64,000 bases of DNA from an uncultured archaeon (GTDB lineage Archaea; Halobacteriota; Archaeoglobi; Archaeoglobales; Archaeoglobaceae), in the NCBI GenBank assembly GCA_964596255.1, contig CAZQTT010000001.1:20327-84326 (forward strand), in the 5' to 3' direction. Made by a program: the position numbers and the translations under genes. The notes beneath the pieces were generated by a model, which did no database searches, was not told the origin of the DNA, and saw nothing but the letters and a program-made list of their open reading frames with translations. This document shows, piece by piece, positions 18,182 through 28,205 of this stretch (the first letter of the stretch is position 1; each line of letters opens with the position of its first letter).

Positions 18182-18931
18182 TTATGCGATGTCTTTAGAG
18201 GTATCTATCTTTATCCCCTCTTCTACTTTAAATTTGAAGGTCTCCTTTACGGGAGGTCTGTTTCTGATTTTTGGAATGGAAAGAACACTTTTTATTTGTG
18301 CTCCAACTTCTTCACTGCGGACATTAAAAACAACGTCACTGATCTCTATTACCATATTGATTATTTCTGTGGGGTGAACACCTTTCATCAGGTATATGTA
18401 AAATAGATTTTTGCTCTCTTTAGAGAGCAAGTAAATTTTGTTCAGCAGCCACTCTTTTAGAGCGAAATCTACATCTAATTTCATGAAAAAGGAAATAGAG
18501 TCAAATATTACATTGAAATCTTCTGGAGTGTGCAGGTCTTTCAATTGGTTGTTTAAAAAGCTAAATACTTCTTTCTTCTTCCATTTGCTGTCTATCAAAA
18601 ATTGTTCGAACTCTGTCTTACCATAATGAGAGAATACATCAATAAACTCTACATTTTCCACCGGAAAACCCATACTGGACATATTTTCCTGTATATACTG
18701 GACAGGGCGGAATGTGTTAAAATAGTAGGTCTTTCTTTCTGAGGACAGTTGGTACAGGAACGCTTCTGGCATACTAATGGGATCAGCATAGATACATACC
18801 AGACTATTTTCAGGTAATCCTCCTCCGAATTGTTTATCAAGCAATTCAATTCCTGTGGGTCTGTTACCTATTTTTTTGGTGGTTTTACTTATTTTGTCTA
18901 AGTGTTTTTGTAATTCAGAATTCACCATCAT
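18182..18931 (-). CDS. KaiC/RecA-fold protein lacking a Walker A P-loop (pseudo-ATPase)
   Basis: TGIELLDKQFGGGLPENSLVCIYADPISMPEAFLYQL aligns with the KaiC-like entry motif, but GxxGxGKT is replaced by ADPISMPE. 249 aa. Confidence 0.65.
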   Translation of the reverse strand: MMVNSELQKHLDKISKTTKKIGNRPTGIELLDKQFGGGLPENSLVCIYADPISMPEAFLYQLSSERKTYYFNTFRPVQYIQENMSSMGFPVENVEFIDVFSHYGKTEFEQFLIDSKWKKKEVFSFLNNQLKDLHTPEDFNVIFDSISFFMKLDVDFALKEWLLNKIYLLSKESKNLFYIYLMKGVHPTEIINMVIEISDVVFNVRSEEVGAQIKSVLSIPKIRNRPPVKETFKFKVEEGIKIDTSKDIA

Positions 18932-19220
18932 ACTGTAACAACCGTATAAAGCTAATAACCACTACAAAAAAAGGTTTACTCAAAAGCCATTATGAGAATA
19001 TGAAACCAAGATACCCCCAGAGAATTTTTTATGATAGTTTGCAGGCGTTTAAAGTTACATTTATTTGAAATACAAATGTGATTATGGATCCTATTTAATT
19101 CAAACATTTTATACCGGACATTGGGGCAGATGGCGACTGTAGAGTAGTAAAACTAAATCATAATGAGATAATAGCAAACTTAATAATTTCTAATAATTAT
19201 TATCATAAAGGTTAGCAATA

Positions 19221-22200
19221 ATGGTCTCTAACAAAACAGTACAAGATTCCCAGAAAGATGCTGAATCAGATATAAAAAAGTACAGTGAATATTTATTATA
19301 TAATCCGGAAGATATAGACGCTCATTTCAACTTGGGGATCATCTATTACGAGAAGGGAGATATAGAGAAGGCCATCAAGCAATTCGAGAAATTATTGAGT
19401 ATAAACTCAAAACATACAGAGGCTCGTTTCAACTTGGGACTTTTATATCAGGTAGAAGGAGAGTTCGATAAGGCTATAGAGCAATTCAATCAGATTCTAG
19501 AGATAAATAAAAAGGATGCTGATACTCACCTAAGCCTCGGCCTGGTCTATCTGGATAAAGGAGATCATCTTTCAGCTAAAGAAGAGGTTAAAAGAGCAAT
19601 CAAGATAGACAAAAATTATTCGGAAGCTTATTTCGCCTTGGGTAAGATTTATGAGAAGCTAAGAGAAAAGGACAAAGCTACCAAAGAATATTACAGGAGC
19701 CTAAAGATAAATCCAAAGAATACCAATGCCCTATTTAGAGTGGGGAAACTGTATGTAAATCAGGGTAACCTTAGCCAGGCCGTTGAGGAGTTTGAAAAAT
19801 ATATTAAGTGGAATCCCAGAGACTTTAGAGTTTATTACGAGCTGGGAAATATATACAACCAACTTGAGGATTACACCAAAGCCGTTCAAAAATTTGAAAA
19901 AGTCCTGAAACTGAACCCCCAAAACCTTGAAGCTCATTTTGAGCTAGGCAACGCATATTACAAATTAGAAAAGTACGATAAAGCCTCAGAAGAGTTTTAT
20001 GAGGTTTTAAAATTAGATTCACAGAATGTGGAAGCCCGATACCTCCTTGGAGTAGTATACAAAATAGTAGGATCCATCGATAAAGCTGTTGAAGAGTTTT
20101 TAGAGGTTATCAGAAGAGACCATGACCATACAGAAGCACACTACAATTTAGGAGAAGTTTATTATCTTCAGGGAGATTATTACAGTGCAATCACCGAATT
20201 TGAAAAAGTCCTGACCTCAAACCCGGAAGATACCAGAATCAACTATAAATTGGGTATCTCTTATAATGAGTTGAGGGAGTACGATAAAGCCATACAGGAG
20301 TTTGAGAAAGCTCTGAAAAATAGTTCACCAGATGCTGAGTTTCACTATCACTTGGGGGTGGCTTATTGGGGTAAATCACAGCCTGATTTGGCCTTTTCTG
20401 AGTTTGAGAAAGCCATACAGGAGGGTTTTACAGGTTCCGGTGTATACTTAAATTTAGGTTCAGTACATTATGAGAGAGGAGAGATTGATAAGGCTATTAA
20501 GAGGTATAATGAGGCTCTAAAATTAGATAATAACCTGATAGAGGCTAACATTAACCTGGGTATAATCTATTATGAGAACCACATGTATGAGAAGGCAGTT
20601 AGAGAGTTCAAAAGGATTCTGGCACTGAATCCCCATAACAATGGCATAAGGAACATGTTGGCTGTTTCTTACCTGGAACTGGGAGAACACGATTTGGCTA
20701 TACAGGAATTCAATCGAGTGTTAAAGAGGGAACCCAGAAACACTGAGGCCAGGTATAGACTAGGTCTCCTATATCTCCACAAAGAAGAGATTGAATTGGC
20801 TTTAACCGAATTTGAGGCGGTAGCGAAGGAAGGAGTAAGAGACTCTAACATACAATTTAATCTGGGATTGATATATTACAAACAGAACAGATGGGAAGAA
20901 GCAATTGAGCATTTTATACAGGTCTTGAGAATGGATCCTGCATACATTGAAGCGTACTATTATCTGGGATTGGCATACAGAAATAGAGGTGATAGGGGGC
21001 TGGCCATGAAGGAGTTTCTGGAAGTGATGAGAAGGGATCCCGATCACCTGAAGGCCCGTATTTACCTAGGAATAGATTATCTTCATCAGGAATTTTACCA
21101 CCAAGCAGTAGAGGAATTTAAAAAAGTTTTACAGTTAGACTGGAACCACATAGAAGCTTTTCTAAACTTGGGAATTGCCTACTACAAATTGAATGAAATT
21201 GATAAGGCTATAGATTGTTTTGAAGAAATACTTTGGATGGACCCCAACCACACCCAAGCCAGCTATTATCTGGGAGTTATCTACAAGGATAGAGATCCCG
21301 AAAAAGCAATTCAGGGCCTTAAAAAATTCTTAACAGAGTATCCTGACGATGCTAAGGCCCACTATGATTTGGGAACTATCTACATGGAGAAAAACGAGGT
21401 AGAGCTGGCCATAAAGGAGTTCACAAAATTCTTGGAAATAGAGGACAACCTTGAAGTGCACTATAAGTTAGGTGTAGCTTACAGCAAAAAAGAGGAAATC
21501 AAGAAAGCAATCGAGGAATTTGAAGAGATCTTGAATAGAGATGCAAACCATTTAGACGCTCAATATCAGCTGGCGCTGATCTACAAGGAGAAAGAAGACT
21601 TTGACCTTGCTATAGAGTATTTTGAGAAGATTGCAGGTAAACGCAATACCTCAAATCTTGAGATTCTTCTGGATTTGGGGCAACTCTACTATCAGAAAGG
21701 AGAGCACCAGGAAGCCATTCAAAAACTGAAGACAGTTTTGAGACTGGATCCCCACAACTCACAGGCCAGCTACACACTGGCTCAAATCTTACATGACCGG
21801 GGTGAACTGGACCAGTGTATTGAGGAATATAAGAAAATCCTGAAAGCCAATCCAGATGACACCGATACCAGGTACAAACTGGGTGTGGCGTATAGGGATG
21901 TGGGGGAGACAGATCTGGCTGCCAGAGAATTCCTGGAGGTCTTTAACAGAGATCCGAATTATTATGATGCACAACTTCAGCTAGGAGTGATCTATAAGGA
22001 CAAAGGAGACATAACTCTGGCGGCAAAAGAGTTCCAGGAAGTTCTCCATAACAATCCCCAAAATTTTGATGCACACTTCTACTTGGGGATGATCTACCAC
22101 CAGCAGGAATACGATAAAAAAGCTGCTGAAGAATTCTCTGAAATCGTTAAAGTAGATCCAGACAATATTAAGGCCTATTATGGTTCAGGATATATACACT

Positions 22201-23294
22201 TTCACCAGGGAGATTTTGAAAGAGCTGCTGAAGAATTTCAGGAAGTTCTGAACCGAGAACCCAATCATTCGGATGCCCGGGTTTATTTAGGAAAAATTTA
22301 TTACAAACTGAATGAAGTAGAAAGGGCTGTAGAGCAGTTCAAAGAGGTTTTGAGATTATATCCTAACCACATCGAGGCTAAATATAATTTAGGAGTTATT
22401 TATAAGGATACAGGAGACCTCAACAAAGCTGTCGATAACTTTAAAGAAGTGGTGGAAAAAATGCCAGATAATGTGGAAGCTCGATATGATTTGGGGTTAA
22501 TATATTACCGTATGGGGAATTTTAAGTCATCTATAGAAGAACTTGAAGAAGTGGTGCGTTGGGAGCCCCAACATGTAGACGGGCTATTAAATCTGGGATA
22601 TCTGTACTACGAGCAAAAAGAAGATGAAAAGGCAATTAGAATGTTTAATGAAGTTCTGAAACTTGATCCCCAGAATGTCAGGGCCAAATACACTTTGGGG
22701 ACTATTTATAAAAACAGGGGCGAGGATGAACAGGCCATTCAGGAGTTCAATAACATCCTGGAAAGCGCACCGGATTGTGCTGAGGCCCATCTCGATCTGG
22801 GGCTTATTTATAAAGAAAACAAAGAGGAGAAAAAGGCTATTAAAGAGCTTAAAGAAGTTTTAAGATTGAATCCCCAAAATGTAGATGCTTATTACCATCT
22901 GGGAACTATTTTACGCGACCAGGAAAAATTAGAACAAGCCATCGAAAATTATCTCCAAGTTTTGGATATCGATCCCCAACATATAGATGCTCGATTAAAC
23001 CTGGGGGCAGCATATTATTATCAGGAGAGATTTAATTTGGCCATTCAGGAGTTTAATGAAGCACTAAAACTTCAACCCCAAAATCCTGACGCTCATTTTA
23101 ATCTTGGGGTTGTCAACAAGGAAAAAGGGAATCATCAAAAGGCACTGGAACACTACAAGCTTTTCCTGGAGGTGGCTACAGCAGAGTACTCCCAATTTTT
23201 CGAAATGGTGAAGGAAACCATTGACGACATTTTGAAAGAGTGCGGTAAACCGCTGGAGATGTGGGACAGTATAAGGAATAGTATGAAAGTATAA
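19221..23294 (+). CDS. Giant tetratricopeptide-repeat protein (1357 aa, TPR units almost end to end)
   Basis: Continuous 34-aa periodicity (A.Y.LG..Y...G....AI..F...L..DP.N..A). No signal peptide is visible. Confidence 0.9.
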   Translation: MVSNKTVQDSQKDAESDIKKYSEYLLYNPEDIDAHFNLGIIYYEKGDIEKAIKQFEKLLSINSKHTEARFNLGLLYQVEGEFDKAIEQFNQILEINKKDADTHLSLGLVYLDKGDHLSAKEEVKRAIKIDKNYSEAYFALGKIYEKLREKDKATKEYYRSLKINPKNTNALFRVGKLYVNQGNLSQAVEEFEKYIKWNPRDFRVYYELGNIYNQLEDYTKAVQKFEKVLKLNPQNLEAHFELGNAYYKLEKYDKASEEFYEVLKLDSQNVEARYLLGVVYKIVGSIDKAVEEFLEVIRRDHDHTEAHYNLGEVYYLQGDYYSAITEFEKVLTSNPEDTRINYKLGISYNELREYDKAIQEFEKALKNSSPDAEFHYHLGVAYWGKSQPDLAFSEFEKAIQEGFTGSGVYLNLGSVHYERGEIDKAIKRYNEALKLDNNLIEANINLGIIYYENHMYEKAVREFKRILALNPHNNGIRNMLAVSYLELGEHDLAIQEFNRVLKREPRNTEARYRLGLLYLHKEEIELALTEFEAVAKEGVRDSNIQFNLGLIYYKQNRWEEAIEHFIQVLRMDPAYIEAYYYLGLAYRNRGDRGLAMKEFLEVMRRDPDHLKARIYLGIDYLHQEFYHQAVEEFKKVLQLDWNHIEAFLNLGIAYYKLNEIDKAIDCFEEILWMDPNHTQASYYLGVIYKDRDPEKAIQGLKKFLTEYPDDAKAHYDLGTIYMEKNEVELAIKEFTKFLEIEDNLEVHYKLGVAYSKKEEIKKAIEEFEEILNRDANHLDAQYQLALIYKEKEDFDLAIEYFEKIAGKRNTSNLEILLDLGQLYYQKGEHQEAIQKLKTVLRLDPHNSQASYTLAQILHDRGELDQCIEEYKKILKANPDDTDTRYKLGVAYRDVGETDLAAREFLEVFNRDPNYYDAQLQLGVIYKDKGDITLAAKEFQEVLHNNPQNFDAHFYLGMIYHQQEYDKKAAEEFSEIVKVDPDNIKAYYGSGYIHFHQGDFERAAEEFQEVLNREPNHSDARVYLGKIYYKLNEVERAVEQFKEVLRLYPNHIEAKYNLGVIYKDTGDLNKAVDNFKEVVEKMPDNVEARYDLGLIYYRMGNFKSSIEELEEVVRWEPQHVDGLLNLGYLYYEQKEDEKAIRMFNEVLKLDPQNVRAKYTLGTIYKNRGEDEQAIQEFNNILESAPDCAEAHLDLGLIYKENKEEKKAIKELKEVLRLNPQNVDAYYHLGTILRDQEKLEQAIENYLQVLDIDPQHIDARLNLGAAYYYQERFNLAIQEFNEALKLQPQNPDAHFNLGVVNKEKGNHQKALEHYKLFLEVATAEYSQFFEMVKETIDDILKECGKPLEMWDSIRNSMKV

Positions 23295-23329
23295 GAAAAG
23301 TATTATAAATCAAATTGTCAGAATCTGAA

Positions 23330-23917
23330 CTACCAGTCTTTTAGAAGTTTTTCTACTTTATCTCTAGTAATTAGCTCTTCCTCAGGCTCTTCATCAATTT
23401 CCTCTTCAAACTGGTTTAAGCTAAGTTCCTTTGAATTGGCGTCTTCTGACCCGCTATCAGTGTCTTTTTCCAGTTTTTTACCGTATTGCTCCATTATTAT
23501 CCCTGCAGCGATTTTGGCGATTCTTTGCTCGTCAATTGGGTTTTGAGTTTTACTTTCCTCTTGTTGTTCTTCTTGCTCCGTCTTATTTTGTTCCCGTTGG
23601 TCTTCGAAGTGTGAGCAGAATAAGCACATGTAGGGGTGTAGGGGTTTTGGCTTTTTACTGGCCTGGACTTTGACATCCCTATTACAATTTTCAACATCAC
23701 TGTATTTGCAGTTGTATAATCTTTCTTTGGCACAGTAATCTGCAATTTTTAAGAAATCATTTGCATTCCCAATTTCATCAATCTGAGGTTTTTTCCGCTT
23801 TAGAAAATACCATTCGAGGAGTAATTCAACTAGCTCTGATGGCTCCTTCTGTGTCTTCTTGCACTTCTCATCTAGAAGTTCTTCAACTTCTGAAGGGACA
23901 TCTACTGTAAGTTTCAT
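23330..23917 (-). CDS. RHH-like N-terminal domain protein with a Cys-rich centre and acidic tail (candidate ParR-like adaptor)
   Basis: KLTVDVPSEVEELLDEKCKK..PSELVELLLEWY fits a ribbon-helix-helix pattern. Cys pattern C-x6-C-x7-C ... C-x2-C, then a Glu/Asp-rich C-terminus. It starts 5 nt after the actin-like gene. Confidence 0.5.
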   Translation of the reverse strand: MKLTVDVPSEVEELLDEKCKKTQKEPSELVELLLEWYFLKRKKPQIDEIGNANDFLKIADYCAKERLYNCKYSDVENCNRDVKVQASKKPKPLHPYMCLFCSHFEDQREQNKTEQEEQQEESKTQNPIDEQRIAKIAAGIIMEQYGKKLEKDTDSGSEDANSKELSLNQFEEEIDEEPEEELITRDKVEKLLKDW

Positions 23918-23921
23918 TTAA

Positions 23922-24947
23922 CTAATTTTTTACTTCTATTTCTTCTTTTTTCTTTTCTTCCTTCTCTTTACCTTTGCCCTTTTGTTTAGTTTCCTTTACT
24001 GAGTCTTTTACTGTTTGAGAATCTTTATGTTTGAATAAAGATCTGGAGAGGTTGTAATACCCTTTGGCGTTACTGGAAACTGGTTCTTGTGGCCTCACTA
24101 CGTCAGCTATGTCCTGAAAATTCTTTTTGAATTCATCATAAACACCTGGCAAGAGTGACCCCCCACCAGCGAGTACTATTTGATCTACAATTTCCGTAGA
24201 CAGACCTTCTATAACTGACTTGGTTCTGCTTACTATTCTATCCAGCCATCTGTTTATTAGCCTGTCATACTCTGCCATGACTTCCTTATGAGATACTTTG
24301 ATGGTTTTACCGCTCCTTACTCTACCTATCTCATAGTTGGGGGTGGTCAGCAACCTGGTTATCTCTTCGGGAGTCACACCAATCCCATAATTCTTCCTGA
24401 TAATAACTTCCAGATTGTTGTGCAACCAATCCACTCCTTGCAAAAGCGTATCTCCTTTAACATACTCCAGTTGATGGAGAACAGCGATATCAGTCGTTCC
24501 GAACCCAATGTCCACACATACTCCTGTCTGGACACCCATATGGGCCAGTGTTCCTACAGGCTCAGGGTAAATAGCAACTTCAGCATTAAAATGCTTCTCT
24601 ATACCATTTTTAAGTTCTTCTCGCTCGTTTTTGGAAGATTTTACCGGCATTCCAGTTGCTATTACTTCCGGCTCAATATTCATTGTTTTAAAAGCGTGTT
24701 TTGCCAGTTCTATATACGACTGGCTTATAATTCGTCCTTCATGAAGTGGACGTTCTGCTTCAATATTTTCCATGTTCTGAACCATTGTTAGAGCTTCTTC
24801 TCCAACATAAGTATCCTTATTTTCCTCCTTAAAAGTCCAGTCTTTTTCGTCTTCATAAACAACTATACTGGGGAATTGAGTGACTTTTCCGCCATCCATT
24901 GTGGCTTTAGTATAGTTGGTTCCGATATCCAACCCTACTATCTTCAT
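23922..24947 (-). CDS. Actin-fold ATPase, ParM/Alp-like
   Basis: MKIVGLDIGTNYTK (phosphate 1), VCVDIGFGTTDIAV (phosphate 2) and IVLAGGGSLLPGV (adenosine). 341 aa with a Lys/Glu-rich tail. Confidence 0.75.
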   Translation of the reverse strand: MKIVGLDIGTNYTKATMDGGKVTQFPSIVVYEDEKDWTFKEENKDTYVGEEALTMVQNMENIEAERPLHEGRIISQSYIELAKHAFKTMNIEPEVIATGMPVKSSKNEREELKNGIEKHFNAEVAIYPEPVGTLAHMGVQTGVCVDIGFGTTDIAVLHQLEYVKGDTLLQGVDWLHNNLEVIIRKNYGIGVTPEEITRLLTTPNYEIGRVRSGKTIKVSHKEVMAEYDRLINRWLDRIVSRTKSVIEGLSTEIVDQIVLAGGGSLLPGVYDEFKKNFQDIADVVRPQEPVSSNAKGYYNLSRSLFKHKDSQTVKDSVKETKQKGKGKEKEEKKKEEIEVKN

Positions 24948-25052
24948 AATAATTATTGTAATTGTAAATTATATAATAATTTCCCTCAGGGTATTAGAGA
25001 TGTGATAATGCGACAAAGGGAAGTACCAAACATAAAAAAGAAAATCCCCTTC

Positions 25053-26384
25053 TTATATCCTGCAGGACTTTGGAGTGTCTAAGGAGTGAATACCCCTCGC
25101 CTTAACCACATTGAGATATCTATGGACCCCTGTTTCATCTTTTTTGAAGCTGAGTTCAATTACTGCCTGAACAAAACTCTCTTCCAGGCCGTTCTTTTCT
25201 GTGTGTTTATCCTTGACAAGCAGAACGGTACTGTCCAGATTCTCAGAATTTATTATCATTTTCCTGGCGATATCCCTGGCCCAGGGATGATTTAAAATCA
25301 GCAGTGTAGTGAAAGTATCTATAACCACTCTATTTGCCCCCACCTTCCTGATGTGCCCGTATAAATCATTCAAAATCCTTTCACAGTATTCTATAGGCGA
25401 AATATCTCCGTGGAACACCTTTTCTTTTAATTCTTCTACCTGGTGGGTCAGATCATACAGGTAGAGCAATTCACGGTCGATATAATCTCTAAGGTTGTAA
25501 TCGAGCATCTCAAAATCTTGAATAAGATGTTCTGGGTTCTGATCCGTTAAGATTAAGAGTGATTTTTCTCCTCTCCTGCAGCCTTCCAGTAAGAACCTTA
25601 TACCAAATGTAGTTTTCCCCGAACCCATATCCCCAGATAAAAGATAAACCCGGTTCTTTATGAGGCCTCCTCCCATAATCCTATCCAGCACAGGGATACC
25701 AGACGGGATGAGGTATTTTCTTTTCTCCAATAACTTATCGACAGCCTGTCTATCAAATATCTCTAATTCTCTACTTTCTGCATATTTTTTAGCTTCCTCA
25801 GATAAATTAGAGAGAGAAACGACCATGTAATCCAGTCCTATGTCATTTTCCTTTCCACAGAACTTTTTCACCTGGTTGGTGTCCACTTCCTTTCCTTCTG
25901 GTATCACATCGATAGCTGTGTCCTTCCCTTCATAGTTTGATGCAAATAAACTAATTGTGTATTTTGTTCCCGATTTCCCCACGACTTCTCCTTTTCTTAC
26001 AATGTTGCTGTATCCCTTACTTACCAGAAAGCTTTCTGCAAGTTCGAGTGACTGGTTCTCAATTTTATTGATGAGGTTTTCACAAACGTTACGGGCCATT
26101 TCAAAAGCATTATTCCACGCTGTATCCTTGTCTACCCCCTTTTTCATCTGTTCTTTTGCTTCTGTCTTTATACCGTGAAAAAGAAGCTCTTTGGTGAATC
26201 CAAACCCGTAGTCATCAATTTTTTCAATATAGTCGATAATCCTGTCTATAATTTCTTCTGATGGAGCATCCGTCTGTTTATTTGTATTCTGACGTATTTC
26301 ATTACCGACTATTGTCATCTCAATTAACTCCTGATTTAGTAACTGAAGGAGAGCCAGTTGTTTATGTGTTAATTTCCTGCACAC
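25053..26384 (-). CDS. Fusion protein: N-terminal region, Mrr-like (restriction endonuclease fold) domain and KaiC/RecA-like ATPase
   Basis: C-terminal domain has IPSGIPVLDRIMGGGL..LLSGDMGSGKTTF (Walker A) and RVVIDTF (Walker B). The middle part (LAESFLVSKGY...YMVVSLSNLSEEAKKYAESRELEIFD) resembles the Mrr catalytic-domain layout. The start could instead be the ATG at 26318, which has AGGAG upstream. Confidence 0.65.
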   Translation of the reverse strand: MCRKLTHKQLALLQLLNQELIEMTIVGNEIRQNTNKQTDAPSEEIIDRIIDYIEKIDDYGFGFTKELLFHGIKTEAKEQMKKGVDKDTAWNNAFEMARNVCENLINKIENQSLELAESFLVSKGYSNIVRKGEVVGKSGTKYTISLFASNYEGKDTAIDVIPEGKEVDTNQVKKFCGKENDIGLDYMVVSLSNLSEEAKKYAESRELEIFDRQAVDKLLEKRKYLIPSGIPVLDRIMGGGLIKNRVYLLSGDMGSGKTTFGIRFLLEGCRRGEKSLLILTDQNPEHLIQDFEMLDYNLRDYIDRELLYLYDLTHQVEELKEKVFHGDISPIEYCERILNDLYGHIRKVGANRVVIDTFTTLLILNHPWARDIARKMIINSENLDSTVLLVKDKHTEKNGLEESFVQAVIELSFKKDETGVHRYLNVVKARGIHSLDTPKSCRI

Positions 26385-26603
26385 CCCTCCAGGTACAGAA
26401 TACCTGTTTTTATTTCTCTCTAAATATTTCTTCTACTGTTTCTTATAAAAAAATTATTAGTAAAATACGATAATACTCATTATCACCAGAAACATGACTT
26501 TGAGACGAGACTGAGCTAATTCTTCATTATGTAGCGAGGGTAGAAGCTTAACGTTGAGTGGTAATAGTATCAATTTTAACCACAGGAAATTTTTTGTAGT
26601 AGT

Positions 26604-28205
26604 TTGATTATGATAATAATAATGAATATGCAAACGGGTACTATTACTGGCCAAAGTGTTCCTAGTCATTATAAAATCATAGAACAACTTTACGGTGAAC
26701 TGGATCACAATATCTTAAACAATAAAGAGCCTCCTGAAAATATAGAGGTCATAGACGATTACTGGGTTGTGCCTGGTTTCTCTAAAATACAGATCTGGAG
26801 AGATTATGTGGATAAATTCGAGTACAATTACGTTCTTATTGAACCGCCAATATCTGAAGAGGAATACTCTCTACTTAACTCTATCTACAATGATATGAGA
26901 CGCTCTCTGGTATTGAATGACTATTCTACAGATGAGAGCACCAAAACTACGGTAATAATGGAGGTTCTGGACGAATTGATAAAGGAATATGCTCTTGAAT
27001 TGGAACCAGAGCTAAAAATGAAAATCCTGTATTATCTATTGAGGAACTTCATAGGGTTTGGTACCATAGATTCCATCCTGAACGATAAGTATGTAGAAGA
27101 TATATCATGCGATGGATATGACATCCCCCTCTACATTTTTCATACCAAGCACGGAGGGATGCGAACAAACGTGAAGCTCAGCAGGAACAGACTCGATTCT
27201 CTGGTAACACTGCTCTGCCAGAAATCAGGTAAATACATCTCTTATGCAAATCCGCTTATAGATGCTTCCCTACCTGACGGAAGCAGACTTCATGCAAGTT
27301 ACGGAGAGGAGATAACTCCCAGAGGAAGTAGTTTTACCATAAGAAAGTTCAAGGAAGACCCTTATACTCCAATCGATTTGATGAATTTCGGCACTCTAAG
27401 TTCTGACATAATCGCTTATTTCTGGTTGCTTATGGAGCACAAAATGAACGTTATGGTTATAGGGGAGACTGCCAGCGGGAAGACCACCACACTAAATGCT
27501 TTAACTATGTTCATTCCTCCCGAATCAAAAATTGTGTCCATAGAAGATACCAGAGAGATTCAACTTAATCACGAAAACTGGATAGCTGAACTAACACGAA
27601 TCGGAATTGAAGGAAGTGGAGAAATCTCAATGTATGACCTGTTGAAGACCACTTTGAGGCAAAGGCCGGATTACATAATTGTGGGTGAGATCAGGGGAGT
27701 GGAAGGGCAAACCCTTTTCCAGGCCATGTCCACAGGCCACTCGTCGCACTCTACGCTACATGCAGGGGATATGAGTCAGCTTATTTACAGATTGGAGAAC
27801 GAGCCTTTAAAGATACCCAGGATCATGATACAGTTTCTTGATGCCGTTGTGGTGCAGAACATGTGGTCCGGAAAAGGTGTGAGGAAAAGGAGAGCCAATC
27901 AGGTGAGCGAGATATTTGGTATTGACCAGACAAATAAGGATTTGCTTTTGAACCCTATTTACAAGTGGAACTCGGCGAAAGACTCGTTTGCAATTCAATC
28001 TCAATCTAAAAAACTGAAGAAGATCTCAGAAGTTACCGGTGAGAGCGTCTCCATAATTCAAGAAGAGAAAAAAAGAAGAAAATTATTCCTGGAAAAAATG
28101 CAGAGAAGAGGTATAAGCAATTATAACGACTTTTCCCATTTCGTTAATATCTATTATAAAGATAGCCAAAAAGCTATGGAGAGGTTAGATGAGGGAACGG
28201 GTTAA
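26604..28205 (+). CDS. FlaI/ArlI-like type IV filament assembly ATPase (type II/IV secretion NTPase family)
   Basis: Walker A VIGETASGKTTTLNAL, Walker B PDYIIVGEIRG and His box GHSSHSTLHA. The start is ambiguous among several TTG/ATG codons at 26604-26631. Confidence 0.9.
   Translation: MIMIIIMNMQTGTITGQSVPSHYKIIEQLYGELDHNILNNKEPPENIEVIDDYWVVPGFSKIQIWRDYVDKFEYNYVLIEPPISEEEYSLLNSIYNDMRRSLVLNDYSTDESTKTTVIMEVLDELIKEYALELEPELKMKILYYLLRNFIGFGTIDSILNDKYVEDISCDGYDIPLYIFHTKHGGMRTNVKLSRNRLDSLVTLLCQKSGKYISYANPLIDASLPDGSRLHASYGEEITPRGSSFTIRKFKEDPYTPIDLMNFGTLSSDIIAYFWLLMEHKMNVMVIGETASGKTTTLNALTMFIPPESKIVSIEDTREIQLNHENWIAELTRIGIEGSGEISMYDLLKTTLRQRPDYIIVGEIRGVEGQTLFQAMSTGHSSHSTLHAGDMSQLIYRLENEPLKIPRIMIQFLDAVVVQNMWSGKGVRKRRANQVSEIFGIDQTNKDLLLNPIYKWNSAKDSFAIQSQSKKLKKISEVTGESVSIIQEEKKRRKLFLEKMQRRGISNYNDFSHFVNIYYKDSQKAMERLDEGTG

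What the first reader, a model, noticed from the sequence alone, without database searches (positions are those of the whole stretch)
25053..26384. Fusion of an Mrr-like nuclease-fold domain to a KaiC/RecA-type ATPase
The C-terminal 220 aa form a canonical single-domain KaiC-like ATPase (GDMGSGKTTF, VVIDTF). The preceding ~110 aa follow the layout of the Mrr catalytic domain. They have a helix ending in GY, a central beta segment, and a C-terminal xVVSLSNLSEEAKKYA..ELEIFD block resembling the ..VTTs.FT..A..yA....i.LiD end of that family. I cannot locate a clean D...(D/E)xK triad by eye, so the domain may be a DNA-binding rather than a cleaving module. A nuclease-fold-RecA-fold fusion next to a pilus ATPase suggests DNA handling (uptake, defence or repair) or a sensor head for a KaiC signalling hub.
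Basis: partly seen in the sequence, partly recalled or inferred. Interest (0 to 1): 0.6.

Follow-up and report, generated by a model that had tools for sequence, protein, structure and literature searches.

The report
Dead nuclease domain fused to KaiC ATPase
An archaeal gene beside a pilus-assembly operon joins a restriction-enzyme-like domain, which has lost its cutting residues, to a KaiC-type ATPase; it is most likely a regulator of a cell-surface filament rather than a DNA-cutting enzyme, and the same dead-nuclease domain turns up repeatedly on pilus proteins of other microbes.

Summary
Window 25053-26318 (-) encodes a 421-aa protein; the true start is probably ATG 26318, not GTG 26384. 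It has three parts:
- a clade-specific three-helix N-terminus (res 1-90);
- an Mrr-type PD-(D/E)xK fold (res 91-202);
- one KaiC/RecA ATPase domain (res 203-421), with Walker A and B intact.

The fold is supported by Pfam Mrr_cat (20.4 bits, cut-off 21), an AF2 model (pLDDT 88.8), and Foldseek top hits to AF1548 (Mrr-like), NucS/EndoMS, Can2 and Card1.

The catalytic triad is gone. Aligned to AF1548, D...ExK reads S123...D137-V-I139.

The domain belongs to a family of at least 274 representative proteins. Only 9 of 182 domain copies keep a canonical triad. The family sits on REC-TackOD1 proteins and MshEN-PilB pilus ATPases, and occurs as stand-alone tandem proteins. These are encoded in type IV pilus operons or beside GT2 polysaccharide synthases.

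The KaiC fusion is rare: one Archaeoglobaceae genus (4 of 5 genomes) plus one distant archaeal homologue. There is no PADLOC defence hit.

Best reading: a KaiC-type regulator of the adjacent FlaI/FlaJ-like pilus system, with the dead nuclease domain as its docking or sensing head. This is a new variant of a known kind, of moderate interest.

The parts
25053..26318 (-). Gene for the 421-aa fusion protein.
   Evidence: ORF. Orthologues of 403-421 aa start at the equivalent Met. GGAG lies 9 nt upstream of ATG 26318.
26049..26318 (-). N-terminal region, res 1-90. Res 1-16 are disordered, followed by three helices (21-37, 43-59, 64-100); the last helix runs into the nuclease-fold core. Specific to the close clade.
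   Evidence: AF2 model. The profile search found this part only in the close family. It is absent from the distant homologue P0008. dN/dS is about 0.05.
25713..26048 (-). Degenerate Mrr-type PD-(D/E)xK (restriction endonuclease-like) domain, res 91-202.
   Evidence: Pfam Mrr_cat 20.4 bits. Foldseek hits to AF1548, NucS, Can2 and Card1. Profile hit to 1y88 at E=0.0025, with residue mapping.
25941..25979 (-). GKSGTKYTISLFA, res 114-126: the beta1-beta2 hairpin with the family signature GxSG..H.FD..A. Here the family His is Tyr120 and the catalytic (metal-binding) Asp is Ser123.
   Evidence: Column statistics: D at this column in 152 of 182 family copies, S in 8 of 9 of the KaiC-fused clade. It aligns to the D of IDVVA in AF1548.
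25896..25916 (-). AIDVIPE, res 135-141: beta3, where (D/E)xK should be. D137 takes the place of Glu and I139 the place of Lys. D137 and E141 are invariant in the clade.
   Evidence: Alignment to ECK of AF1548. Controls with ECK or QCK fall on the same columns. Invariant columns.
25842..25868 (-). KKFCGKEND, res 151-159: the helix after beta3, carrying K156 and D159, the most conserved family-specific residues (D in 97% of copies).
25056..25712 (-). Single KaiC/RecA-type ATPase domain, res 203-421.
   Evidence: Pfam PF06745 E=1.6e-40. PDB KaiC hits at E=6e-25. Foldseek hits to KaiC CI, PH0284 and PH0186.
25611..25634 (-). Walker A, GDMGSGKT (res 229-236).
   Evidence: Read directly from the sequence; invariant in the clade.
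25311..25331 (-). Walker B strand, RVVIDTF (res 330-336).
   Evidence: Read directly from the sequence; aligned to KaiC.
25530..25556 (-). LILTDQNPE (res 255-263). The pair of catalytic glutamates of KaiC (fEE) reads D259-Q260 here.
   Evidence: Alignment to KaiC chains. Paralogues in the same genome also have Asp at the first position.
26319..26603 (.). AT-rich divergent intergenic region shared with the pilus ATPase operon. Presumed to hold both promoters, with a TATA-like TTTTTATAAG about 125 nt upstream of the ATG.
   Evidence: Sequence. The promoter assignment is inferred, not tested.
26604..28205 (+). FlaI-like type IV pilus / secretion ATPase, transcribed divergently.
   Evidence: Pfam T2SSE E=5.6e-36 and PilB3_C. 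The NCBIfam FlaI model scores 393 bits, below its 550-bit cut-off.
28189..30072 (+). TadC/FlaJ-like platform membrane protein.
   Evidence: Pfam T2SSF E=4e-28.
30084..32288 (+). 734-aa protein with a prepilin-type N-terminus and Big_1 domains; the likely substrate of the system.
   Evidence: Pfam Big_1 E=2.6e-16; Pilin_N weak.
23922..24947 (-). Actin/MreB-like gene 105 nt downstream. Possibly a separate transcription unit.
   Evidence: Pfam MreB_Mbl E=1e-20. A T-run follows the stop of the fusion gene, then an AT-rich spacer.

Best explanation
The gene encodes a cytoplasmic regulator built from three parts: a clade-specific helical N-terminus, a catalytically dead Mrr-type restriction-endonuclease-fold domain, and one KaiC/RecA-type ATPase domain.

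Shown here:
- the fold of each part;
- loss of the canonical D...(D/E)xK triad (S123 / D137 / I139);
- intact Walker A and B motifs;
- purifying selection on all three parts;
- membership of the middle domain in a large family of mostly triad-less domains. These are attached to response regulators (REC-TackOD1), to MshEN-PilB pilus ATPases, or encoded as stand-alone tandem proteins at the head of type IV pilus operons or beside GT2 polysaccharide synthase genes.

Inferred:
- The KaiC domain forms the usual ring and cycles ATP (and possibly autophosphorylation) as a switch.
- The dead-nuclease domain is the head that docks on a component of the divergently transcribed FlaI/FlaJ-like pilus system, or senses a ligand for it. 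It probably pairs with a neighbour's copy, because elsewhere the domain mostly occurs as a tandem pair.
- The protein thereby controls assembly or expression of that surface filament. The precedents are KaiC-like ArlH and CirA at archaellum loci, and the KaiC arCOGs found in archaeal pilus loci.

It is not expected to cut DNA.
For: Architecture:
- KaiC PF06745 at E=1.6e-40 and Mrr_cat at 20.4 bits.
- AF2 models with pLDDT 80.7 (full length) and 88.8 (N-terminal part).
- Foldseek hits to KaiC for the C-terminal part, and to AF1548, NucS, Can2 and Card1 for the middle part.

Dead active site:
- The family profile aligns to AF1548, placing its D / E-x-K on S123 / D137-V-I139.
- Only 9 of 182 family domain copies keep a canonical triad. 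Canonical Mrr_cat controls from other Archaeoglobi put ECK or QCK on the same columns.

Family links to signalling and pili:
- Among 145 top profile hits, TackOD1 occurs in 59, REC in 15, MshEN in 9 and T2SSE in 6.
- Tandem domain-MshEN-T2SSE fusions exist, one followed by T2SSF.
- A stand-alone tandem protein is the first gene of a T2SSE-T2SSF-pilin-PilM operon.
- Of 126 genes flanking 79 metagenomic TackOD1-type loci, 39 carry N_methyl pilin motifs and 33 are prepilin peptidases.
- TackOD1 proteins (arCOG06883) are reported in thaumarchaeal pilus loci (PMC5847659, PMC4858521).

Locus and conservation:
- The gene is divergent from T2SSE/T2SSF/pilin-like genes. The 11-gene block is syntenic in two further genomes of the genus; a third, on a short contig, keeps the actin/TPR side.
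- dN/dS is well below 1 in all three segments.

Precedents: KaiC ATPases are known in archaeal pilus loci (PMC4858521). Divergently transcribed KaiC-like CirA represses arlI/arlJ (PMC10983859).
Against: - There is no experimental or co-folding evidence for contact with the pilus ATPase or platform protein.
- Synteny is seen only among close relatives (74-90% identity), so it carries little independent weight.
- The one distant homologue (P0008, 49% identity) is not next to pilus genes. It is translationally coupled to a GT2 cellulose-synthase-like gene. The common theme may therefore be 'surface structure' rather than pili specifically.
- The 79 metagenomic loci belong to one subfamily and are not independent observations.
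- The pocket residues S116, D137, E141, K156 and D159 are invariant in the clade, so a non-canonical catalytic or ligand-binding activity cannot be excluded.
- The KaiC catalytic Glu pair reads Asp-Gln, so the ATPase may be slow or may only bind nucleotide.
Confidence: 0.55

Rival explanations
1. The dead-nuclease domain is a non-cleaving DNA-binding module. The protein would then be a KaiC-driven transcription regulator that binds the 285-bp divergent promoter region between itself and the pilus ATPase operon. This resembles the transcriptional effect of CirA, but by direct DNA contact.
For: - PD-(D/E)xK folds are DNA binders by ancestry. The best structural matches are DNA enzymes.
- In relatives the tandem domain is the C-terminal part of response regulators, where a DNA-binding output is usual, or a stand-alone first gene of an operon.
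- CirA affects arl transcription (PMC10983859).
- The gene has a divergent promoter arrangement.
Against: - The domain is acidic (pI 5.3; family median 5.6; only 18% of copies have pI above 8).
- The same domain is fused directly to PilB-type motor ATPases, which fits protein- or ligand-level control better.
- Some relatives carry separate wHTH domains as well.
Confidence: 0.2
2. It is an active ATP-dependent nuclease for repair, defence or DNA uptake: a RecA-fold motor coupled to a nuclease, in the spirit of NucS or of ATPase-nuclease defence proteins.
For: - The nuclease fold is real.
- D137, E141 and K156 are invariant and could in principle form a rearranged site.
- The pilus neighbourhood could suggest DNA uptake.
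Against: - The canonical metal-binding Asp is Ser, and the beta3 Lys is Ile, Leu or Thr across the clade.
- No PADLOC match for the domain or the neighbours; the full-length protein gives only a marginal mad8 hit (E=0.0016, 16 bits) within its KaiC part.
- The relatives' partners are REC, Zn-ribbon, MshEN and PilB, not helicases, methylases or repair proteins.
- NCBIfam RadA, RadB and RecA scores are far below their cut-offs.
Confidence: 0.07
3. It works with the downstream actin-like/RHH pair, for example as a loader or regulator of an actin-type filament, and its position next to the pilus operon is incidental.
For: - Same strand, only 105 nt upstream of the actin-like gene.
- The arrangement is kept in all four genomes of the genus that carry the gene.
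Against: - A T-run directly follows the stop codon, and an AT-rich spacer with a TATA-like box precedes the actin gene. This suggests separate transcription.
- The distant homologue P0008 has no actin neighbour.
- The domain family's recurring partners are pilus and GT2 genes.
Confidence: 0.1

Closest known systems
Single-domain archaeal KaiC-like ATPases associated with type IV pilus and archaellum loci (ArlH/FlaH; CirA of Haloferax volcanii; arCOG01171-01175)
   Same: - One RecA/KaiC-type domain with Walker A and B motifs.
- Encoded beside, and here divergently from, a FlaI/FlaJ-type ATPase and platform pair, exactly as cirA is relative to arlI/arlJ (PMC10983859).
- Proposed regulatory role (PMC4858521).
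   Different: - It carries about 200 extra N-terminal residues (helical region plus dead nuclease fold) that none of these have.
- NCBIfam scores for ArlH (43.5 vs 215) and the KaiC_arch models (86.9 vs 249) are far below their cut-offs.
- The nearest KaiC domain elsewhere in the class is only about 30% identical.
- The catalytic EE pair reads DQ.
Mrr_cat (PF04471) restriction-endonuclease domains, e.g. AF1548 (PDB 1y88) and E. coli Mrr
   Same: - Same alpha-beta-beta-beta-alpha-beta core.
- Same G-Y end of helix 1.
- Same GxSG..H.(I/F)D hairpin as an archaeal Mrr_cat subgroup.
- Same ..S.EA..YA...I C-terminal block.
   Different: - The catalytic D...(E/Q)xK is replaced by S...D-x-I.
- It scores just under the Pfam cut-off.
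- No DNA-recognition domain is attached.
Triad-less Mrr-like domains of REC-TackOD1 response regulators (arCOG06883-type), MshEN-PilB ATPases and stand-alone tandem proteins. This family is unnamed. Some members also match NA-iREase1 (PF22722).
   Same: - Homologous domain: profile E-values down to 1e-31.
- Shared signature G-Y, GxSG, K..D and A...A.
- Lack of the beta3 Lys.
- Genomic link to type IV pilus or surface-polymer genes.
   Different: - Those proteins usually carry the domain in tandem (2-3 copies). They pair it with REC, Zn-ribbon or PilB modules, never with KaiC (0 of 145).
- They mostly keep His120 and Asp123, which the KaiC-fused clade has changed: D123 to S in 8 of 9 members, H120 to Y in the window protein only.
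NucS/EndoMS
   Same: The nuclease-fold domain superposes on it (Foldseek E about 1e-4), and both are archaeal.
   Different: NucS has an N-terminal DNA-binding domain, an intact D-E-K site and no ATPase. None of its defining residues are kept here.

Membership tests
PD-(D/E)xK / Mrr_cat (PF04471) | alpha-beta-beta-beta-alpha-beta core fold | tested here: met
   In the AF2 model (pLDDT 88.8) the secondary-structure order is H64-100, E104-113, E119-127, E133-139, H147-160, E163-168. Foldseek top hits are 1y88, 2vld, 5gkj, Can2 and Card1.
PD-(D/E)xK / Mrr_cat (PF04471) | Profile match above Pfam's gathering score | tested here: inconclusive
   The window protein scores 20.4 bits against a cut-off of 21. 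52 of 71 and 26 of 74 domain relatives match Mrr_cat. The family profile hits 1y88 at E=0.0025.
PD-(D/E)xK / Mrr_cat (PF04471) | Catalytic D ... (D/E/Q)xK triad | tested here: not met
   The triad positions read S123, D137 and I139. Lys is absent at this column across the clade, and a canonical triad is found in only 9 of 182 family copies. Controls align correctly.
KaiC/RecA-superfamily ATPase domain (PF06745) | Profile match and fold | tested here: met
   139.4 bits against a cut-off of 26.6. PDB KaiC hits at E=6e-25. Foldseek TM-score up to 0.81 on the target to KaiC CI and PH0186.
KaiC/RecA-superfamily ATPase domain (PF06745) | Walker A GxxGxGK(T/S) and Walker B hhhhD | tested here: met
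   GDMGSGKT (res 229-236) and RVVID (res 330-334), invariant in the clade.
KaiC/RecA-superfamily ATPase domain (PF06745) | Pair of catalytic glutamates after beta2 (EE in KaiC CI and CII) | tested here: not met
   Aligned positions read D259-Q260. Asp at the first position is also seen in other KaiC-like paralogues of this genome, so catalysis may persist. This was not tested.
Circadian KaiC proper | Two tandem KaiC domains, CII phosphosites, KaiB/KaiA partners | tested here: not met
   It has a single domain. NCBIfam circ_KaiC scores 42.9 bits against 546, and PRK09302 scores 89.6 against 408.
ArlH/FlaH | NCBIfam equivalog score; location inside an arl operon | tested here: not met
   43.5 bits against a cut-off of 215. 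The neighbouring ATPase scores below the FlaI cut-off (393 vs 550), and no archaellins were seen.
KaiC-like hexameric switch (functional class) | Ring formation, ATP hydrolysis, autophosphorylation | not testable with these tools
   Needs biochemistry or multimer modelling.
Known anti-phage defence systems (PADLOC) | Match of the protein or its neighbours to a defence model | tested here: not met
   Only a marginal mad8 hit in the P-loop region (E=0.0016, 16 bits). Nothing for the nuclease-fold domain or the neighbours.
Pilus-associated triad-less Mrr-like domain family (unnamed) | Signature G-Y / GxSG / H..D / K..D / A...A, and a genomic link to type IV pilus or GT2 genes | tested here: met
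   Profile E-values down to 1e-31 to family members. The signature is kept except H120Y and D123S. The gene is adjacent to T2SSE/T2SSF.

The most novel reading that the evidence does not exclude
The triad-less Mrr-like domain defines a widespread, so far undescribed regulatory module of type IV pilus and exopolysaccharide systems in both bacteria and archaea. It has been recruited independently onto PilB motors, REC-TackOD1 response regulators and, here, a KaiC switch. Its conserved former active-site pocket (GxSG, H/D, K..D) would bind a common partner or small ligand that tells the cell when to build surface filaments.
Probability: 0.35. Interest if true: 0.65.

Novelty: new variant of a known kind. 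Interest (0 to 1): 0.45.

Why it matters
KaiC-like ATPases are proposed to be the main signalling hubs of archaea, but how they receive inputs or reach targets is mostly unknown. This protein shows a KaiC switch physically joined to a domain that recurs on pilus motors, on pilus-locus response regulators, and beside polysaccharide synthases in other organisms. That gives a concrete, testable handle on one input or output of a KaiC hub.

It also points to a sizeable family of dead restriction-enzyme folds (at least 274 clusters at 50% identity) that the held literature does not describe as pilus-associated. The TackOD1 paper does not mention the Mrr-like repeats that follow that domain.

For annotation, it warns against calling such genes restriction endonucleases.

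Tried and rejected
- **PDB sequence search with the N-terminal profile (A2).** It gave only a chance malate dehydrogenase hit. The narrower domain profile was needed.
- **Foldseek with the full-length model.** It was swamped by KaiC hits. A separate model of res 1-205 was needed.
- **The key KaiC-hub paper (mBio 2017, PMC5717392).** It is not held, so I could not check whether this fusion is listed there.
- **Literature searches.** Searches for KaiC+Mrr and for inactive restriction endonuclease + type IV pili found nothing relevant.
- **Metagenome scan with the broad domain alignment.** A narrower subfamily alignment had to be used, so that sample covers one subfamily only.
- **Frames of about 420 aa with a domain hit in other Archaeoglobi genera (L098-L100).** They looked like further fusions but are canonical Mrr_cat proteins without KaiC.
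- **Reading the DQ replacement of the catalytic EE pair as proof of an inactive ATPase.** Rejected, because paralogues in the same genome also carry Asp there.
- **The c-di-GMP sensor idea for this organism.** Rejected, because the genome has no GGDEF domain, although it has one DAC cyclase.
Full report
**The gene and its start.**
The ORF listed at 25053-26384 (-) is real. Six orthologues from metagenome-assembled Archaeoglobaceae genomes are 403-421 aa. They begin at the Met that corresponds to ATG 26318. A GGAG lies 9 nt upstream of that ATG.

**C-terminal half: KaiC domain.**
- Pfam KaiC PF06745 matches at E=1.6e-40.
- PDB sequence hits to KaiC reach E=6e-25, and there are hits to the single-domain archaeal proteins PH0284, PH0186 and SSO2452.
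- Foldseek on the full-length AF2 model (pLDDT 80.7) returns only KaiC-type chains.
- Walker A (GDMGSGKT, res 229-236) and Walker B (RVVID, res 330-334) are intact and invariant.
- The two catalytic glutamates of KaiC align to D259-Q260. Other KaiC-like paralogues of this genome also have Asp at the first position, so I do not read this as proof of inactivity.
- NCBIfam scores for circadian KaiC, the archaeal KaiC equivalogs, ArlH, RadA and RadB are all far below their cut-offs.

The domain is therefore a KaiC-superfamily ATPase, but not a member of any curated subfamily.

**Middle part: a real but degenerate Mrr-type nuclease fold.**
- Pfam Mrr_cat matches res 92-196 over nearly its whole profile, at 20.4 bits against a cut-off of 21.
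- An AF2 model of res 1-205, built with an alignment of 32 sequences, reaches pLDDT 88.8. It shows three helices followed by a beta-beta-beta-alpha-beta-alpha-beta arrangement.
- Foldseek against the PDB puts AF1548 (1y88, an Mrr-like protein of Archaeoglobus fulgidus) first, at E=9e-6 and rmsd 2.4 A over 131 columns. NucS/EndoMS, VC1899, Cdn1, Can2, Card1, MspJI and Bax1 follow. All are PD-(D/E)xK folds.
- A profile of the domain family hits 1y88 by sequence at E=0.0025. That alignment places AF1548's catalytic Asp (IDVVA) on S123 and its E-C-K on D137-V138-I139.
- In the nine sequences of the KaiC-fused clade, the Asp column is Ser in eight and the Lys column is Ile, Leu or Thr.
- As a control, three canonical Mrr_cat proteins from other Archaeoglobi genera align with ECK or QCK exactly on these columns.

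**The domain belongs to a large, mostly triad-less family tied to signalling and pili.**
A profile of the N-terminal 202 residues was searched against 1.8 billion representative proteins. It found 274 proteins at E<=1e-3. All matches outside the close clade cover only res 96-197, so the first 90 residues are clade-specific.

Family features:
- Many hits carry the domain twice or three times in tandem.
- The family signature is G-Y, GxSG, H..D, K..D, A...A.
- Only 9 of 182 domain copies have a canonical D...(D/E/Q)xK.

Pfam content of the 145 best hits:

| Pfam family | Proteins |
|---|---|
| TackOD1 | 59 |
| Mrr_cat | 78 |
| NA-iREase1 | 18 |
| REC | 15 |
| MshEN | 9 |
| T2SSE | 6 |
| wHTH types | a few |
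| KaiC | 0 |

Individual architectures and contexts:
- Tandem domain-MshEN-T2SSE proteins (PilB-type motors) exist. One of them is followed by T2SSF in a bacterial contig.
- A stand-alone tandem protein is the first gene of a T2SSE-T2SSF-pilin-PilM operon.
- A REC-TackOD1-tandem protein is followed by a GT2 chitin/cellulose-synthase-like gene and sugar-nucleotide enzymes.

A metagenome scan with one subfamily returned 394 relatives. For the 79 loci analysed, 126 flanking genes were scanned: 39 have the N_methyl pilin motif, 33 are prepilin peptidases and 3 are T2SSE. These loci are one subfamily, so they count as one strong case rather than 79.

The literature reports TackOD1 proteins (arCOG06883) in thaumarchaeal type IV pilus loci (PMC5847659, PMC4858521). 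The words Mrr and endonuclease do not occur in the TackOD1 paper.

**Context of the window gene.**
- It is transcribed divergently from three genes, across 285 bp of AT-rich DNA: a FlaI-like ATPase (T2SSE), a FlaJ/TadC-like platform protein (T2SSF) and a 734-aa prepilin-type Big_1 protein.
- Downstream on the same strand lie an actin/MreB-like gene and a 195-aa acidic protein. A T-run directly after the stop codon and an AT-rich 105-nt spacer suggest separate transcription.
- The whole 11-gene block is syntenic in two further genomes of the genus; a third, on a 10-kb contig, keeps the fusion, actin-like, acidic and TPR genes. These are close relatives.
- The one distant homologue (P0008, 49% identity) lacks the helical N-terminus. 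Its contig carries archaeal ribosomal protein genes. It overlaps a GT2 cellulose-synthase-like gene by 4 nt and is surrounded by further KaiC-like and REC-KaiC genes.

**Distribution.**
- Of 96 genomes of the class, the fusion occurs only in the window's own genus, in 4 of 5 genomes.
- Elsewhere in the class, the best match to its KaiC part is about 30% identical.
- A pattern scan of all GTDB species representatives found four loci.
- The own genome has a single copy of the domain.
- All three segments are under purifying selection: dN/dS is about 0.05, 0.1 and 0.02. dS is saturated, so these values are rough.

**Weighing the functions.**
- Nuclease, repair or defence role: disfavoured. The triad is lost. 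There is no PADLOC match beyond a marginal mad8 hit in the KaiC part. The family's partners are signalling and pilus proteins.
- Pure DNA-binding role: possible, but weakened. The domain's pI is about 5.3 and the family median is 5.6. The domain is also fused directly to PilB motors.
- c-di-GMP sensing: excluded for this organism, because the genome has no GGDEF domain. It does have one DAC cyclase.
- Regulation of the adjacent pilus-type system: the best fit. KaiC-like ATPases are established residents of archaeal pilus and archaellum loci (PMC4858521). The KaiC-like CirA, divergently transcribed from arlI/arlJ, represses those genes and motility in Haloferax volcanii (PMC10983859).

I therefore read the protein as a KaiC-type switch that controls the adjacent pilus-type system. 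The dead nuclease fold would serve as its docking or sensing head. Because the domain is usually tandem elsewhere, copies from neighbouring subunits of a KaiC ring may pair; this is inference only. The invariant pocket residues (S116, D137, E141, K156, D159) show that the former active-site region still matters, for binding or for an unrecognised chemistry.

**Verdict.**
- Observation: confirmed.
- Interpretation: partly supported. The sensor-head reading holds; the DNA-handling reading does not.
- Novelty: KaiC regulators at pilus loci are a known kind. The fusion to a dead Mrr-like domain is a new, narrowly distributed variant.
- Wider point of interest: the recurrent link between this domain family and pilus or polysaccharide machinery.

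Noticed in passing
L011:9001-9804 and downstream; L009:8001-11300; L010:9001-11253; L012-L091: Outside the KaiC clade, the triad-less Mrr-like domain occurs in three forms. It heads a bacterial T2SSE-T2SSF-pilin-PilM operon as a stand-alone tandem protein. It is fused N-terminally to MshEN-PilB ATPases. It follows TackOD1 in proteins flanked by pilins and prepilin peptidase. The TackOD1 paper held here does not use the words Mrr or endonuclease.
   Followed up: partly
L002:10001-12654 and L010:9001-12786: Two unrelated architectures carrying the domain (Mrr-like-KaiC, and REC-TackOD1-tandem) are each followed directly by a GT2 cellulose/chitin-synthase-like gene. This suggests a second recurring partner besides pili.
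   Followed up: no
L098:730-1989, L100:592-1866, L099:784-2055: Other Archaeoglobi genera encode proteins of about 420 aa with canonical Mrr_cat domains (intact D...ECK or QCK) that share the GxSG..HEID hairpin. These are likely the active ancestors of the degenerate family. One has N- and C-terminal Zn-ribbon-like CxxC pairs.
   Followed up: partly
window 24948-25052: A T-run (TTTTCTTTTTT) directly follows the stop of the fusion gene. An AT-rich spacer with a TATA-like TTATATAA precedes the actin-like gene, so the actin/RHH pair may be its own transcription unit.
   Followed up: no
window 26604-26640: The listed TTG start of the FlaI-like ATPase gives an odd MIMIIIMNMQ N-terminus. The orthologue in L001 was called 10 residues shorter, so the true start is probably a few codons downstream.
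   Followed up: no
genome G000, contig C9:35318-35689: The genome has a DAC (c-di-AMP cyclase) domain gene but no GGDEF domain.
   Followed up: partly
window 18182-35736: The locus holds several more KaiC-fold genes (18182-18931, 34253-35056, 34900-35736) and a PAS sensor (32410-34239). All are syntenic in two further genomes of the genus (a third contig ends before that side). The fusion protein may be one node of a multi-KaiC circuit.
   Followed up: partly
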